Below are positions 3,926 to 61,937 of a DNA stretch of 64,000 nt, piece by piece. Numbering within the stretch: the stretch's first letter is position 1; every line of letters starts with the position of its first letter. Under the pieces are notes generated by a model. The model saw only the letters and a list, made by a program, of their open reading frames with translations, did no database searches and was not told the DNA's origin. A program made the position numbers and the translations under genes. Source of the stretch: Octopus vulgaris (taxonomy: Eukaryota); the NCBI GenBank assembly GCA_951406725.2, contig OX597831.1, positions 62,992,001 through 63,056,000 on the forward strand. The letters are read 5' to 3'.

Positions 3926-4859
3926 CGCATTGTAAATAATAACCGCATCACATTGCAATACTGATTTTTTTCCCTGATCATCAAAGTAGCATGGACCTTA
4001 GGTAATATTTAAATGGTTAACAGACTGTGAAACCTAAGTACTGTAAGCGCAAAAAAATTAGAATGCGCTTACATGGTAATGTGGTAAAGGATTTAACACC
4101 CTAACTATATAGAGCAACGTCGATAAAAGTGGGCGGGTGTATGGAACAAATGCGTTGATTCTATATGTTCAAGTGCCCGTGGTGAGCAAAAACAATGAGA
4201 GTAACACTTGGTATGCACCAATAGGTCCAGAAGCCTTTTTATTACATTTATACATGCTTTTATATATACATATAATCACATACTAGAGAAAAATACGTAA
4301 CCTGATACGGTAGCCACACGCTTGTGTGGTGTGTGCGTGTGTGTATTTATGTATATGATTATATAGATACATACACACCAACACACACACACAAACACAT
4401 TCTTTTACTATTTTATACGTTTCAGCACTAAGGGTGTTGGCATACTGGGGCACGTATACATCTAAATACATATATAAGATTTTTTTTAAAATATATAAAC
4501 ACACGCGCACAGATACATAATGACACACGCACACGAACACAGAAATGCTCATATAAAGTGGAACAGTAAATTAGACGAAATTAAATGTTTAAATTAAATC
4601 AAAATGATTAATAAATTTGACGGTTGCCAACAACTATAGTTAATTTGCCATCTGTAATTGTTCTGGTGTTTGCTATAAATATTAATGAAAGGTATCGAAT
4701 ACTGTGTGTGCGCGCGCCCACACACAAACACAGACATACACACACTCACATACACACGCACTCACACACACACACATGCACACGCATACACACAGATGCA
4801 CACATACGTGCGTGTGTGCGGGAGTCTCTGTGTGTGTATTTGCTATGAACAGTGTCCAC

Positions 4860-5600
4860 CCATCCACCCCGGTATCCAGGGTTGGGTTTATGGATTTGGG
4901 GAAGGAAATAGATGGGGGAGGCGTAGGGAGATTCGACATTGTGGTTGGTGACAACAGTGGGAAGGGCAAAAGACGAGTAAAAATGAGGTCTCGGATGGTG
5001 CATGACACGCGCTGCTGGTAGATGGGGGTTCGATAGGAGGGCAGGAGGTGATAGAAAACTCGGTCACGAAGCTGTTGGAATGCTTTCTCCATATAAATGT
5101 CAGCATTCCACACCATTACAGCTCCAATTTTCTGAGCTAGTTTGGTAATGATGGCGACCCGAGGATGGAGGTTGCGGAGGGCTGAGAATTTGGCACGAGA
5201 GATATTTTGCACGGCAGGATCATTTCTTAAAATGAAAGCAATTGACTATGATTGCTGCATGCGTTCACAAACAAATCTAGGCTGCTAAGGCGGACTGAGA
5301 GGGCGCCCAGTTAGATGGACGACAGCTCAGAAGTCATCCTGATTGTTTTGGGGCTGTGTAGTGCCATGAAAGAAGGCGCGCAGTTTTGTGAGGCTAGGTT
5401 TGGGCTAGGTGGGGGCACGACGGAGAGAAGGGAGAATGGGTTGAGGTGGAGAAAAGGCCAGGCTGTTGGTGCCTTGCAAACTTTGGGGCAAAAGGAAAAT
5501 GTTGAGGATTCAGTTTGCTTGTCTGCTTGTAGATTATTTACTATGTGTTTTCGTGAGTGGACGGCAAGACATGCTTTGTTTCGTGTCACAAAACCACAGT
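4860..5600 (-). pseudogene. Penelope-like element reverse transcriptase N-terminal fragment (decayed)
   Basis: NISRAKFSALRNL...IITKLAQKIGAVMVWNADIYMEKAFQQLRD resembles the PLE motif NLS...IKPADKGGAVVVW...Y..EA.RQL.D; a shifted frame gives IYFLPQIHKPNPG (FYLLPKIHK motif). Confidence 0.8.
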
Positions 5601-5637: not shown

Positions 5638-6130
5638 TCAGCATGCTTTCATGCTTGCACGAAGCTGCTCCCGATGATGGATTCGACTTTGCTCAAATAT
5701 TTGAACTGGCGAGATGAGTTGGCGCCAGGTCCTGCGTTCTAATCCTTTGTTTTCCCAGGAAGAAAGGGGAATCGTACATCGCTTCAGATTGTCTTTTAGT
5801 TTGTCTTTGAAGCCTTTCAACTGACCTTCCTGTTGGGGATTACCAATAGAGAAGTGACTTCGGAATTCGGATATCACACGTATGGCCTGATCATCTAGGC
5901 TGTATTTTATGAGGATGACATCAATACCTGATATGCTACATTTTTTAGTACTTCACTGTTATGAACATGGTCACTCGGTTTTCTGTTGCAGATAGTAGCC
6001 AGGCATCGCATATGAAAACTGTCAAGCTGGTTGATGTGTTTTCGGTACAGGGTCCAAGATTCAGCACCATAAAGCAATGTTGTCAAGACCACCGACTTAT
6101 ACGCATTGATTTTCATGTTCACGTATTTGA
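5638..6130 (-). pseudogene. RTE-clade LINE, C-terminal ORF fragment
   Basis: KINAYKSVVLTTLLYGAESWTLYRKHINQLDSFHMRCL and GQLKGFKDKLKDNLK...WENKGLERRTWR, typical of the RTE/BovB post-RT region; frameshifted. Confidence 0.85.
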
Positions 6131-6139
6131 AGCAGATAA

Positions 6140-6600
6140 AGAGAGGTGTTTCCAATGAGTCAAACTGATGAGGCCAACCCTCATCCTGAATTAGGAAACG
6201 TTCAAAGAAACCCGTTGAAGTTGCATGAAACCAAGTCAGATTTTCTTGTGATATAATCATCTTGGTACATGTTTGATTGGGTTTCGGAAGACATAGAACC
6301 CACTGATGGGAAACCTTCCTGAAGCCAAGTACATTGTACAGAATATTGGCAACTTTCTCACGGTCACACTATATGCTTATTTGATGGTTATTTGATTTAT
6401 TGTCAATTGTCTGTCGTCCATCACCACGTGGTGAACACGACCAAGGTGTTCCTTATTGGTAGCAGTTGCAGGACATCGGGTCATCTTCAGGACTTTCCCT
6501 TCCCGTCCTAAATTCAACTTCCCACATTGCACGATTCAGTAAGCTGTAGCAAGCATGTCAGGGGCAGGTTCTTGATAACAGCAAGATGTCAAATTTTGTC
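6140..6600 (-). pseudogene. mariner transposase N-terminal/central fragment
   Basis: Across frameshifts: GRESPEDDP, VVMDDRQLTINQI, LGFRKVSHQWV (WVP motif), FFERFLIQDEGWPHQFD (T.DE.W motif). Confidence 0.75.
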
Positions 6601-17505: not shown

Positions 17506-17552
<47 letters not shown>

Positions 17553-17720
17553 CATAAGGGGCATCAGCCATCTGAATGTGGCCAGGGACAGGGCAGGGTG
17601 GTGGGGGTGTTACTGATGCATTTAGCCCCAGGCGATCATCGACGTCACCAGGAGGGCTGACACCATCTCGGTGTCCTCTAGCCTGCAAAGGGAGATCATT
17701 CCTCGAAGATACGGATACTA

Positions 17721-17764
17721 CATACGGACCAGGTTTCGAGGTATTTGCCTCTTATCAACGCATG
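17721..17764 (-). ncRNA. Type I hammerhead ribozyme (U3-A8 variant); predicted GUC cleavage between 17727 and 17726
   Basis: CAUGCG-UUGAUAA-GAGG caaaua CCUC-GAAA-CCUGG-UC-CGUAUG: 6-bp stem I, 4-bp stem II, near-palindromic stem III ACCUGGU. Confidence 0.8.
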
Positions 17765-18077
17765 GTAAGCACCGTTCTCCGACGAATAACTCTCTCTACA
17801 GGCCATATATATAAGGATTTTCACAGTAAACACAGTCACTGATGTAGAAAAACCGTTCGAAAATAATAATAAATCTCTAAACGAGATATAAACAGTAACT
17901 GCTCTATAACATAAGGGGCATCAGTCATCTGAATATGGCTAGGGACAGAGCAGGGTGGTGGGGGTGTTACTGATGCATTTAGCCCCAGGCGATCATCGAC
18001 GTCACCAGGAGGGCTGACACCATCTCGGTGTCCTCTAGCCTGCAAAGGGAGATCATTCCCCGAAGATACGGATACTA

Positions 18078-18121
18078 CATACGGACCAGGTTTCGAGGTA
18101 TTTGCCTCTTACCAACGCTTG
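18078..18121 (-). ncRNA. Second copy of the hammerhead, probably inactive (A6G core change)
   Basis: Core reads UUGGUAA and stem I has a mismatch (CAAGCG vs CGUAUG). Confidence 0.7.
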
Positions 18122-18655
18122 GTAAGCACCGTTCTCCGACGAATAACTCTCTCTACAGGCCATATATATAAGGATTTTCACAGTAAACACAGTCACTGAT
18201 GTAGAAAAACCGTTCGAAAACAATAATAAATCTCTAAACGAGATATAAACAGTAACTGCTCTAAACATAAGGGGCATCAGCCATCTAAATGTGGCTAGGG
18301 ACAGGGCAGGGTGGCGGGGGTATTACTGATGCATTTAGCCCCAGGCGATCATCGACGTCACCAGGAGGGCTGACACCAACTCGGTGTCCTCTAGCCTGCA
18401 AAGGGAGATCATTCCCCGAAGATACGGGGGAAACCTGGTCCGTATGTAGTATCCGTATCTTCGAGGAATGATCTCCCTTTGCAGGCTAGAGGACACCGAG
18501 ATGGTGTCAGCCCTCCTGGTGACGTCGATGATCGCCTGGGGCTAAATGCATCAGTAACACCTCCACCACCCTGCCCTGTCCCTAGCCACATTCAGATGGC
18601 TGATGCCCCTTATGTTATAGAGCAGTTACTGTTTATATCTCGTTTAGAGATTTAT

Positions 18656-18693
<38 letters not shown>

Positions 18694-18757: not shown

Positions 18758-20012
18758 TGTCCCAAAACAATGCATACACACTTTAAATAATTGTAAAGTA
18801 GGTGTTTATCAAAATACATTACATTATCAAAATTTAGTTGAATTTACAGACGTTATATTATTGTTTTGTCAACGCCTGTTTTGACTCTGACGTTCGTTTT
18901 ACTCCAGGCACTAATAACAACGTGAAGCAATGGAATTGCAACGTTACAAAACAATCAATTTGATATTTGTGTGCATTCTCGTTCAGTGGCTGCTCACAAT
19001 TCAGTGACTGTTGCAAGTTTCGTAGCATAGATTTTTTTTTCTTTTAGGTATCCCCATAAAAAAAATATCTAGGGATGAGAGGTCTGGTGAACGTGGAATG
19101 TATTCAACGAAGCTCATTAGTCCAATCCACCATTTTGGCAAGACCTCATCAAGAAAGATCTAACATCGCGATGGTAGTGTTGGGGTATCCCTTCTTGCTG
19201 AAAATAAAAGTCTTCATCTTCAAAGTCTTCTCTAATGCTTGGTATGAGAGACTGTTGCAGCAAGTTCAAGTAAATGAAACCAGTCACGGTAGCGTCAAAA
19301 AAGAATGGTCCACTTAATCCTCTTGATGATAAGCCACACCACACTGTAAATGCTGGTAAATTAACATAATGTTCCACCTTAACATGCGGATTCTTATGTC
19401 CCCAGTTGGTGCAACTGTGGCAGTTAATTGAACAATTTAATTTGAATCTAGACTCATCACATCACACAATCTTTGTTGGAAGGTGTACATCTACACATCG
19501 TGCATGGTACCACTCTCAATATTGCAATCTTCCACTTGGATCATCGTTAATAATAGCATGGACTAATCTCGGAACGTAACTTTTCCGTTGACGACGCTTC
19601 AAAATGCGTTGAACAGACGATTTTTGAAATGTCTACTTCTCGACTCGCTTGCTGCACAGATTTTCTTGGACTTTGGTGATAAGTTTCCAGAACTGCTTCT
19701 TGCTTTGCGGAGGTTGTTGATGTTCGAGGTCTACTGGAATGCTTCTCGAGGACATTCTGAACACGTCCATCGGTTTCACACTTATCTCTAATTCGAGTGA
19801 TGGCAAGTCACGTTGATGGATCTCTTTGAAATTCCGTCCTAAAATGTCTTTGCACTTCAACTGCGTTTTCACACTTCCAGCAGCATTTTAGAATAAACTT
19901 CCTTTGTTAAAGCTTAGTCTGAGTGCCAGCATTAATGCCAATGGCTTTAATTTGGAAATATATCTTTAGTTATCAGGTGCTAAAGTTTGCATGCATTTTT
20001 TGAGATACCCTG
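18758..20012 (-). mobile_element. Tc1/mariner-superfamily DNA transposon with decayed transposase
   Basis: [27 protein letters not shown]...[20 protein letters not shown] (QQDGAPPH motif); N-terminal HTH-like remnant; TIR remnants tgtcccaaaacaatgcatacacacttt / aaagtttgcatgcattttttgagataccctg-TA. Confidence 0.85.
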
Positions 20013-24989: not shown

Positions 24990-25431
24990 TTCAGTAGTTT
25001 TATATTTATAGCGTGCTTTCACTTCACTACCGAGCGCAGCTCTGTGTGCCTTGGGTATGTGCTGTGATTTGTTGTGATGCTCTGATGGTTATTGTATGGA
25101 AAGTGTTCTGCGTAGGATGTGTGCGGTGCCTAGAAGTGCAATTTTCTGTATGTTATATATGTTTGTAAGTCCTGGTGTTTTTGTTATGTATTTGTCTGAA
25201 TATTTTTTTATCATGCCTAATGCACCTACTATGATAGGAATTGTTTCTGTTTTTAGATTCCACATTCTGGTTACCTCTATTTCCAGGTCTTTGTATTTTG
25301 AGAGTTTCTTCATTTCTTTTAGAGACACGTTGTCATCTGCCGGTATTGATGTATCAATTAGAAAGCATTTTTTTTCTTCATGATCTCTGACAACTATATC
25401 TGGTCTGTTGGCCTTAATTTCTCTATCTGTG

Positions 25432-25434
<3 letters not shown>
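24990..25434 (-). mobile_element. R4/Dong-like non-LTR retrotransposon, 5'-truncated 3' end (restriction-like endonuclease)
   Basis: TDREIKANRPDIVVRDHEEKKCFLIDTSIPADDNVSLKEMKKLSKYKDL...IPIIVGALG...QKIALLGTAHILRR; (TTA)n on both flanks. Confidence 0.85.
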
Positions 25435-50366: not shown

Positions 50367-51212
50367 TTCAGTAGTTTTATTTTTTTAGCGTGCTTTCACT
50401 TCTCTACCGAGCGCAGCTCTGTGTGCCTTGGGTATGTGCTGTGATTTGTTGTGATGCTCTGATGGTTATTGTATGGAAAGTGTTCTGCGTAGGATGTGTG
50501 CGGTGCCTAGTAGTGCAATTTTCTGTATGTTATATGTGTTTGTAAATCCTGGTGTTTTTGTTATGTATTTGTCTGAATATTTTTTATCATGCCTAATGCA
50601 CCTACTATGATAGGAATTGTTTCTGTTTTTAGATTCCACATTCTAGTTACCTCTATTTCCAGATCTTTGTATTTTGAGAGTTTCTCCATTTCTTTTAGAG
50701 ACACGTTGTCATCAGCCGGTATTGATACATCAATTAGAAAGCATTTTTTTCTTCATGATCTCTGACAACTATATCTGGTCTGTTGGCCTTAATTTCTCTA
50801 TCTGTGTGTATCGGCATATGCCCAGAGTATGGTTGCTTTCTCGTTTTCTGTGACCTTTTCTAGGTGTGCCTATACCAACTTTTTTCTGTTGTTATTCCAT
50901 AATGTTGGCATAGCTTCCAATGTATGTAGGTTCCAACTCTGTCATGTCTGTGAATATATTCCTTCTTAGCCAGGACTGGGCATCCAGAGGTAATATGATT
51001 TATTGTTTCTTGTCCATCTCCACATATTCTGCAGTTACTTGTTATATTTGTTTTCATTACATGTTTTTGGTAATTTCTGGTGGGGAGGCTTTGGTCTTGA
51101 GCTGCAATTAAAAATCCCTCTGTTTCTGCTTTGAGTCCTGAGCTTCTCAACCATTGCTGGGATTTTTCTGTCTATTTCTTTTGCATTTAGTTTAGTCCAG
51201 TATTTAGGGGCT
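50367..51212 (-). mobile_element. R4/Dong-like non-LTR retrotransposon, longer 3' fragment (CCHC knuckle + REL endonuclease)
   Basis: LKAETEGFLIAAQDQSLPTRNY...CRICGDGQETINHITSGCPVLAKKEYIHRHDRV; 3' ~440 bp nearly identical to 24990-25434; 3' end abuts (TAA)n. Confidence 0.9.
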
Positions 51213-58480: not shown

Positions 58481-58694
58481 TTGGGTTTTGATATTAGTTT
58501 GTGACACATTACTAGAAATGTTGCTTGTTAATTCGCTTAGACTTCAATTCCTCTATTGACGTGTCTTACTTACAGCGTGAGAGTACAGTATTTTCTTGTA
58601 GAAAGGAACATTAGAGATTGTCAAATTATTCTAGCAAACGGCTTGATTAATATATCTTCATATATATATATATATATATATATATTTCCTGTGT

Positions 58695-58771
58695 CCTTCG
58701 CAAATATAAGGACAGAGGAAATGTGTCAAAGCCGACAGGAAGCGTCGATGCTTCCTAGGGCTAAATAGCGG
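58695..58771 (+). ncRNA. Structured motif homologous to the retrozyme body (18476-18551)
   Basis: Shared CCTTYGCA-N5-RAGGACA-N9-TGTC-A(1-3)GCC-stem-CGTCGATG-stem-GGCTAAAT, with different but still pairing stems. Confidence 0.55.
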
Positions 58772-58824
58772 TGTTGTAATTCCCTTTATGGGACTGTCAG
58801 GTTATGTTGACAGTATATAACCAA

Positions 58825-58922
<98 letters not shown>

Positions 58923-61526: not shown

Positions 61527-61937
61527 TATTTCTTTATTGACCACAAGGGGCTAAACAGGGAGGGAATAAACAAGGACAGACAAAGGGATTAAGTCGATTA
61601 CATCGACCCAAGTGCGAAACTGGTACTTTATTTATCGACCCCGAAAGGATGAAAGGCAAAGTCGACCTCGGCGCAATTTGAACTCAGAACGTAACGTCAG
61701 ACGAAATACCTATTTCTTTACTACCCACAAGGGGCTAAATACAGAGGGGACAAACAAGGACAGACAAACGGATTAAGTTTAAGTCGATTATATCGACTCC
61801 AGTGCGAAACTGGTACTTATTTATCGACCCCGAAAGGATGAAAGGCAACGTCGACCTCGGCGCAATTTTAACTCGGAATGTAACGACAAACAAAATACCG
61901 CTAAGCATTTCCTCCGGCGCGCTAACGTGTCTGCCAG
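61527..61937 (-). mobile_element. SINE family B head-to-tail dimer inside one TSD
   Basis: Junction gacgaaatacc|tatttc at 61710/61711; cagtctcatatatat at 61515-61529 and 61935-61949. Confidence 0.85.

What the first reader, a model, noticed from the sequence alone, without database searches (positions are those of the whole stretch)
58695..58771. Second, unnamed structured RNA domain shared with the retrozyme and showing covariation
Seen: this isolated island between microsatellites aligns with 18476-18551. The shared layout is CCTT(T/C)GCA, 5 nt, (G/A)AGGACA, exactly 9 nt, TGTC, AGCC, a long stem, apex CGTCGATG, and GGCTAAAT. The stems differ in sequence but still pair (GGTGA/TCGCC vs AGGAAG/CTTCCT; closing TGC/GCA vs CGC/GCG). 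Inference: a conserved three-way-junction motif in diverged element families. The self-complementary apex could be a dimerisation signal for the dimer-dependent HHR, an RT-recruitment signal, or a new catalytic motif. I could not fit it to HDV, twister or pistol consensus.
Basis: partly seen in the sequence, partly recalled or inferred. Interest (0 to 1): 0.72.

Follow-up and report, generated by a model that had tools for sequence, protein, structure and literature searches.

The report
Conserved twin hairpins in animal retrozymes
The motif is a pair of predicted RNA hairpins kept, with matched changes on both strands, by at least seven families of small protein-free jumping repeats that carry a hammerhead ribozyme motif, and it likely helps these repeats capture the copying enzyme of Penelope-type jumping genes rather than acting as a second ribozyme or a pairing signal.

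Summary
The island is real but not isolated. It is a 5'-truncated copy of a ~353-nt type-I hammerhead retrozyme family with about 2,300 candidate copies. It shares the motif with the 357-nt family at 17548-18660 and at least five more diverged families (2,463 pattern hits versus 17 in the control). The conserved unit is two adjacent hairpins: H1, and H2 with an internal loop. Eleven of 15 pairs change on both sides, and G-U outnumbers A-C 29 to 6. The self-complementary apex exists only in families A and B. The would-be HDV cytosine is paired and not conserved. Copies end at two fixed sites downstream (161 of 170 ends), one site per arm in 39 of 42 two-armed insertions, which is the Penelope 'tail' footprint. 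Best reading (0.5): part of the fold that recruits a Penelope-type enzyme in trans. Against it: the sampled autonomous elements lack H1-H2. The class is known; I found no description of the module in print. This scan noted the same fold earlier on other DNA of this genome.

The parts
58684..58698 (-). 15-nt inverted arm of the island: reverse copy of the H1 5' strand and loop, joined through the shared CCTT; it keeps the family C that the forward arm has lost
   Evidence: sequence; family copies; it causes the long local hairpin
58695..58707 (+). remnant of the 3' strand of long helix P1, whose partner lies about 130 nt upstream in full-length copies, on the far side of the hammerhead (absent here through 5' truncation)
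58711..58727 (+). hairpin H1 (6 bp, 5-nt loop starting with a near-invariant G); one pair broken in this copy
58730..58762 (+). hairpin H2: outer AGCC/GGCT, 4x3 internal loop with conserved C and U-R-G, inner GGAAG/CTTCC, variable apex CGTCGATG (58743-58750)
58767..58776 (+). 5' strand of helix P4; its partner lies beyond end site 1 and is absent from this copy
58794..58813 (+). hairpin H5 (GYCA...TGRC), 12-20 nt upstream of end site 1
58820..58826 (+). 3' end of the island at end site 1, running into (CT)n(TA)n
17548..18427 (-). family A left arm: 2.5 tandem 357-nt units, ending at end site 1 in (TA)n; three copies of the H1-H2 module (17608-17681, 17965-18038, 18321-18394)
17722..17765 (-). 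type-I hammerhead of family A with U3-A8 core (TTGATAA...GAAA...GTC); approximate bounds
   Evidence: sequence; U3-A8 variant described in PMC4209133 (passages); no Rfam hit
18428..18659 (+). family A right (inverted) arm: 3' half of the hammerhead (predicted cut after 18440), P1 3' strand, H1-H2, P4 domain and tail; ends at end site 2 in (TA)n
18492..18543 (+).
18638..18650 (+). tail hairpin TCTC-N5-GAGA, about 10 nt before end site 2; a CTC...GAG hairpin sits at the same place in all seven families and in the tail of the commonest autonomous element

Best explanation
The motif is two adjacent predicted RNA hairpins (H1, H2) in a superfamily of ~350-nt hammerhead retrozymes, and it likely forms part of the fold by which these protein-free RNAs recruit a Penelope-type RT/endonuclease in trans. 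Shown from sequence: family membership, covariation, strand bias of wobble pairs, position 50-59 nt (75 in family G) after the predicted hammerhead cut and about 60-125 nt before end site 1, two fixed 3' end sites, and insertion into (TA)n as two arms. Inferred steps: a tandem array is transcribed; the hammerhead cuts it to monomers, which may be circularised; P1 (holding the hammerhead), H1, H2, the P4 domain and small spacer hairpins meet at one multibranch junction; a PLE protein, or a host adaptor that delivers it, binds H1-H2 and the P4/tail region; it nicks both strands of a TA repeat and starts reverse transcription at site 1 on one strand and site 2 on the other. The start sites are set by H5 and the tail hairpin, so H1-H2 would be a binding or positioning module upstream of them, not the start site itself.
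For: Structure. 95.5% of 375 cells are paired; 11 of 15 pairs change on both sides; 0 of 500 shuffles are as high; slid registers reach at most 56.9%. G-U 29 versus A-C 6 points to selection on sense-strand RNA. Families E, F, G and A5 were not in the model's training set and were found through hammerhead or PLE searches. In G, three of the six H1 pairs are swapped. H1 is also predicted from a sequence-only alignment of 9 monomers. H1 (0.77) and H2 (0.60) are as conserved as or more conserved than the hammerhead core region (0.56), against 0.43-0.44 for the P1 arms, over five families. PLE footprint. 161 of 170 3' ends in eight family groups fall in two windows 40-55 nt apart. 39 of 42 two-armed insertions use one site per arm. 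The intact 781-aa RT+GIY-YIG element of this genome shows the same two ends (18 and 7 of 25 ends) in (TA)n, and its 34-nt tail holds a CTC...GAG hairpin 13 nt before end 2 (0.2-0.6% of shuffles, post hoc). In the anole element PAc, reverse transcription starts at two internal sites that define the tail, and the minimal template (+20 to +172) lies mostly 3' of the hammerhead cut at +26 (PMC11167929, parts 1-2 of 4).
Against: The model found no H1-H2 in the terminal repeats of 42 PLE loci. Its 3 hits there are separate retrozyme copies set off by microsatellites. In the commonest autonomous family, end 1 lies only about 60-70 nt after the hammerhead cut, with no room for the module. So H1-H2 is not a copy of that element's own binding site; only 150 of 6,136 GIY-YIG candidates were scored, so another partner is not excluded. 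End sites track H5 and the tail hairpin, not H1-H2. Only 6 of 40 hand-picked diverse hammerhead loci carry the module, so hammerhead motifs also occur in this genome without it. The pair counts use a structure-fitted alignment of related families, and H1 conservation is inflated because families A-D were collected with an H1 pattern. End counts are enriched by queries that reached these ends. No binding or transposition was measured.
Confidence: 0.5

Rival explanations
1. H1-H2 binds a host factor or acts as a folding scaffold needed earlier in the life cycle (ligation to a circle, stability, transport, escape from silencing), and RT recruitment relies only on the P4/H5/tail region.
For: The module is absent from the sampled autonomous elements. 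The ends map to H5 and the tail. The invariant unpaired residues (G before H1, G at the start of the H1 loop, C and U-R-G in the H2 internal loop, A after H2) suit any protein site. Retrozyme circles are made by a host ligase and accumulate (PMC7229834, abstract and passages).
Against: The module keeps a fixed spacing to end 1 across families and is always found with the P4 domain. No host-RNA motif matched in Rfam.
Confidence: 0.27
2. H1-H2 tunes the hammerhead: it favours or blocks the active fold so that multimers are cut and monomers or circles are spared.
For: Distance from the predicted cut is conserved (50-59 nt in nine of ten references), and H1 sits at the foot of the helix that carries the ribozyme.
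Against: About 45 bp of rod separate it from the core. I saw no conserved complementarity between its loops and other regions on reading the alignments.
Confidence: 0.09
3. The self-complementary apex is a kissing-loop dimerisation signal for a dimer-dependent hammerhead.
For: The A and B apices can self-pair over 6-8 nt (-3.8 to -9.9 kcal/mol in 8 of 25 rows).
Against: The other 17 rows (C, D, E, F, G, B3) score -2.0 or weaker. The commonest A variant in my sample has CGTTGATG. Hammerhead dimers form through the palindromic loop III of the ribozyme itself (PMC4209133 and PMC6765202, passages), which most of these families have (CATG, CTAG, CCGG).
Confidence: 0.05
4. The motif is a new self-cleaving or ligating ribozyme.
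For: About a dozen near-invariant positions, several unpaired; no Rfam match.
Against: No conserved pseudoknot seen. The HDV-like C in GGCUA is paired and becomes U with a compensating A in G and in one F copy. 147 5' ends show no peak in or beside the motif (weak test, since the hammerhead site shows no peak either). The element already has a hammerhead.
Confidence: 0.04
5. The conservation is at DNA level: an internal promoter, or a piece derived from 5S rRNA or tRNA.
For: H1 is a dyad. Three of 12 representatives aligned best to the 3' half of the genome's own 5S rRNA in register.
Against: 5S similarity is at chance level (summed score p = 0.40). No Pol III B box in 10 monomers on either strand, and one near-match to an A box. 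Compensatory swaps and G-U bias favour RNA.
Confidence: 0.05

Closest known systems
Metazoan non-LTR retrozymes (Cervera and de la Pena 2020, PMC7229834, abstract and passages; Li, Clavereau and Pollet 2026, 10.64898/2026.07.22.740005, parts 1-3 of 5)
   Same: Non-coding 342-362 nt monomers (mussel 350-390), type-I hammerhead in each unit, tandem arrays plus dispersed solo copies, highly self-paired predicted fold, co-occurrence with PLEs.
   Different: The parts read describe no conserved non-catalytic domain. Here seven or more families keep a colinear multibranch fold with covariation. Unlike the Xenopus case, I found no homology to a sampled PLE terminal repeat beyond the hammerhead and a small tail hairpin. 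Cleavage and circles are not shown here.
Internal RT start region and 'tail' of the anole Poseidon element PAc (Frangieh et al. 2024, PMC11167929, parts 1-2 of 4)
   Same: Region 3' of a hammerhead; two 3' end sites defining a tail; AT-rich targets.
   Different: PAc's region is coding and its binding motif was only bracketed. I could not compare sequences. The tail here is 40-55 nt against 30-40, and the RNA acts in trans.
SINE modules that capture a partner LINE's enzyme (shared 3' stem-loops; the Alu domain) - recalled, one search listing only (PMC6510757)
   Same: A structured RNA module kept by a non-autonomous element and placed upstream of where copying starts.
   Different: No sequence or Rfam match to SRP/Alu, tRNA or 5S; H1-H2 was not found in the sampled autonomous elements; no conserved loop-loop pairing seen between H1 and H2.

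Membership tests
Metazoan non-LTR retrozyme | type-I hammerhead in each unit | tested here: met
   core, stems I-III read in ten references; no Rfam model hit; absent from the truncated island itself
Metazoan non-LTR retrozyme | 150-450 nt non-coding monomers in tandem and dispersed copies | tested here: met
   342-362 nt units; thousands of candidates; no ORF of 100 aa at the island
Metazoan non-LTR retrozyme | self-cleavage and circular RNA in vivo | not testable with these tools
   needs a cleavage assay and raw RNA reads
PLE-mobilised element | two 3' ends (tail), tandem plus inverted arms, microsatellite targets | tested here: met
   161 of 170 ends; 39 of 42 two-armed insertions; features as listed in PMC8557442 (passages)
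PLE-mobilised element | sequence shared with the terminal repeat of an autonomous PLE | tested here: inconclusive
   H1-H2 absent from 42 PLE loci; only a U3-A8 hammerhead core and a short tail hairpin are shared; most PLE candidates not sampled
   cognate -4.7 versus non-cognate -4.1 kcal/mol; best partner in own family 3 of 12; the rival upstream helix gives -17.3 versus -9.4 and 10 of 12
HDV-like ribozyme | conserved catalytic cytosine, unpaired in J4/2 (role from PMC6765202 passage; position recalled) | tested here: not met
   the C of GGCUA pairs in H2 and covaries G-C to A-U
HDV-like ribozyme | nested double pseudoknot (recalled) | tested here: not met
   both helices are simple covarying hairpins; no Rfam hit to E = 10
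Twister, pistol, hatchet, twister-sister and other Rfam RNAs | match to the family covariance model | tested here: not met
   0 hits at E up to 10 on the island and on a full family-B unit; only palindrome-driven miRNA hits and a 17-bit snoRNA hit on family A
Kissing-loop dimerisation signal | conserved self-complementary loop | tested here: not met
   8 of 25 rows, families A and B only
5S- or tRNA-derived SINE head | homology to 5S rRNA, or Pol III A and B boxes | tested here: not met
   (box consensus recalled)

The most novel reading that the evidence does not exclude
H1-H2 is a parasite-specific capture module, absent from the autonomous partner, that lets a circular hammerhead RNA seize a Penelope RT/endonuclease in trans, as the Alu domain does for L1. 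It would be the first defined cis-element for retrozyme mobilisation and a portable RNA handle for directing a PLE enzyme to a cargo RNA.
Probability: 0.3. Interest if true: 0.72.

Novelty: new variant of a known kind. Interest (0 to 1): 0.45.

Why it matters
That animal retrozymes borrow Penelope-type enzymes is proposed from co-occurrence and terminal-repeat homology, but what the enzyme recognises is open, even for the one PLE studied in vitro. Seven diverged families in one genome give a covariation-backed map of the whole RNA, a short list of invariant residues, two predicted start sites and an intact candidate enzyme. That makes the question directly testable with disruptive and compensatory mutants. 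The finding also rules out the more striking readings (new ribozyme, dimer signal) as general explanations.

Tried and rejected
Model R1 was built with a structure string off by one column; it was discarded and never searched, and R2 replaced it. The genome-wide R2 search returned only the 150 top-scoring copies and no new family was taken from it. The Rfam E-value scan of 12 whole loci was swamped by microsatellite hits, with 39 rows unseen; it was redone on trimmed regions. The 5S rRNA resemblance (recalled lead) was rejected against the genome's own 5S. The best-shaped one (L326) has no hammerhead upstream and reads like bacterial coding DNA. Other animal genomes could not be searched. RNAalifold on a sequence-only alignment of 9 monomers recovered H1, H5 and hammerhead stem II but not H2, P1 or P4, whose columns were misaligned. 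Sequencing runs: no RNA holder listed; contigs of one run guessed to be RNA covered 27 of 30 bins but cannot show expression. A 905-nt-period array holding the motif turned out to be a local palindromic amplification. PLE fragments near retrozyme copies (5 loci, two of them overlapping) were not contiguous with them in the four places inspected. The strong local hairpin at 58680-58727 (z = -5.6) comes from the inverted insertion arm. The supplement of PMC7229834 could not be read, so mussel retrozyme sequences were not checked for the motif; bioRxiv supplements were not available.

Full report
Observation. Their alignment scores 36, against a shuffle mean of 13.9 and a maximum of 33 in 5,000. 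Rfam has no match at gathering level in the window or at E up to 10 on the island. The island is not isolated: it has 2,300 first-look candidates in the 2.8-Gb genome, with the best copies 94-96% identical, and the other copy has 2,158. The genome looks cephalopod from a SINE at 61527-61899 that I recognise from memory; no call named it.

What the island is. Longer copies show a ~353-nt unit with an intact type-I hammerhead whose predicted cut lies 56 nt before the motif. The island is a 5'-truncated copy with a 15-nt inverted arm, and it ends at a site where many copies end. The array at 17548-18660 is a second family (A, 357 nt) with a U3-A8 core, a variant described in PMC4209133 (passages). 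A pattern for the motif gives 2,463 hits against 17 for the reversed control. Sampling these gave families A (with A3, A4), B, C and D. A model trained on 12 sequences from A-D then picked up E beside a PLE locus, and F, G and A5 among 40 hand-picked diverse hammerhead loci, of which 6 carried the module. E, F and G have 2,721, 2,430 and 955 candidates (F may overlap B). Family B is also covered over all 30 bins by contigs of three runs labelled as other organisms. Nine monomers of A-E align colinearly over their length, so these families are one diversified superfamily and the motif is its best-kept part.

Structure. Folding real monomers gives a recurring plan (not every helix forms in every single-copy fold): a long rod P1 carrying the hammerhead, then H1, H2, a P4 domain with inner hairpins including H5, a tail hairpin and spacer hairpins, around one multibranch junction. 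For H1-H2, 95.5% of 375 cells pair, 11 of 15 pairs change on both sides, none of 500 shuffles matches this, and slid registers reach at most 56.9% (25 distinct rows). The alignment is fitted to the structure and the rows are related, so this is not a probability. The informative changes are family-level: H1 GACACA/TGTGTC becomes GATGCA/TGCATC or GGTGCA/TGCACC in G; the outer H2 stem AGCC/GGCT becomes AACC/GGTT in G and AGCT/AGCT in E; the inner GG/CC becomes AG/CT in D, E and F. G-U outnumbers A-C 29 to 6, which favours sense-strand RNA over a DNA dyad. Its 5' strand prefers its own family's upstream arm (-17.3 versus -9.4 kcal/mol; best partner in own group 10 of 12), whereas the proposed partner is no better cognate than non-cognate (-4.7 versus -4.1; 3 of 12) and has zero pairing probability in 12 of 12 contexts. 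One representative (C3, a mutated copy) paired with neither. A structure-blind consensus recovered H1 and H5 but missed H2, P1 and P4 through misalignment.

Apex and catalysis. CGTCGATG is in 4 of 25 rows. Self-pairing of -3.8 kcal/mol or stronger occurs in 8 rows, all A or B; C, D, E, F, G and B3 have AGATRT, CGAAGA, CGGTGG, CGGTG or AGAAT. Published hammerhead dimers form through the palindromic loop III (PMC4209133 and PMC6765202, passages), which most of these families carry. The HDV-like GGCUAA is explained as the 3' strand of H2, with its C paired and covarying. 147 5' ends are scattered, with no peak at the motif, though the hammerhead site shows none either.

How copies are made. In eight family groups, 161 of 170 mapped 3' ends fall in two windows, 120-134 and 164-185 nt from the start of the module; read-through copies were set aside. 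The old family G was left out: of its 12 ends, 9 lie at 100-120, 1 at 134 and 2 at 167. Many loci came from queries that reached these ends, which inflates the share. Of 42 insertions with two opposite arms, 39 use one site per arm, as does the array in the window. End 1 lies 12-20 nt after H5; end 2 lies 10-26 nt after a CTC...GAG hairpin. This is the PLE tail and inverted-arm footprint (PMC8557442, passages), which in the anole element PAc reflects two internal RT start sites (PMC11167929, parts 1-2 of 4). The genome holds many intact 781-aa RT+GIY-YIG elements (Neptune-type by the zinc-finger linker, my reading). They show the same two ends (18 and 7 of 25) and a tail hairpin CTCG/CGAG 13 nt before end 2; such a hairpin arose in 0.6% of tail shuffles, and in 0.2% at a similar offset, a post hoc test. 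That family is a candidate partner, not a proven one.

What H1-H2 does. It is conserved at least as well as the hammerhead core region, lies between the cut site and end 1, and exposes invariant unpaired bases, so a binding site is the simplest reading. The corresponding stretch of PAc holds the proposed protein-binding motif. But the sampled autonomous elements lack H1-H2 and have only about 60-70 nt between cut and end 1, and the ends follow H5 and the tail. I therefore commit at 0.5 to a role in capturing or positioning the PLE enzyme in trans, directly or through an adaptor. A host-factor or scaffold role in circle formation or stability is the main rival (0.27); ribozyme tuning, dimer signal, DNA-level promoter and new ribozyme are minor.

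Novelty. The class is known (PMC7229834, abstract and passages; bioRxiv 10.64898/2026.07.22.740005, parts 1-3 of 5). Seven literature searches listed no paper whose title or abstract start describes a conserved non-catalytic domain of animal retrozymes or a cephalopod family. The library is incomplete and the supplements were not seen. Earlier notes of this scan reached a similar reading on other copies; I had recorded the two-end and RT-binding idea before opening them, and took the one-site-per-arm test from them. Verdict: real, covarying, undescribed module of a known kind of element; interest 0.45.

Noticed in passing
G000:C1, loci L173-L212: A hammerhead pattern gives 2,102 hits versus 374 in the control. 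Many of the 40 inspected look single-copy, with an intact core and stem I but no recognisable element around them; possibly old PLE ends or kept host motifs.
   Followed up: partly
L085, L092, L111-L116 (e.g. G000:C16:20836744-20839090): Young RT+GIY-YIG family with many intact 781-aa frames, a terminal repeat rich in GATTGG and TGACGTC repeats (CCAAT- and CRE-like, recalled), a minimal U3-A8 hammerhead and a 34-nt optional tail.
   Followed up: partly
L084, L118, L119: A second PLE family with a CCGAAGA hammerhead core and a different tail lacking the CTC/GAG hairpin.
   Followed up: partly
L123 = G000:C1:150060000-150066500: Four or more ~905-nt units, each a near-perfect palindrome that starts in a truncated retrozyme copy: a local fold-back amplification.
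   Followed up: partly
families A4, A5, D (L072, L180, L080): Hammerhead cores vary by family (CCGACGA, CTGACGA, TTGACGA, TTGATAA) while the rest of the fold is kept.
   Followed up: no
window 58684-58698: The island's second arm ends inside H1 at GGAAAT next to (AT)n, not at end site 2: an exception to the two-site rule, perhaps primed by microhomology.
   Followed up: partly
window 61527-61899: Two tandem 189-nt copies of an abundant SINE-like repeat (recalled as an octopus tRNA-derived SINE).
   Followed up: no
window 19117-19461 (-), 25089-25433 (-), 50860-51171 (-), 5638-6368 (-), 4682-5245 (-): Fragments that read like a Tc1/mariner transposase and LINE or PLE reverse transcriptases (recognised by eye).
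   Followed up: no
G000:C4:35207000-35335000: Cluster of 5S rRNA genes on both strands, some about 500 nt apart.
   Followed up: no
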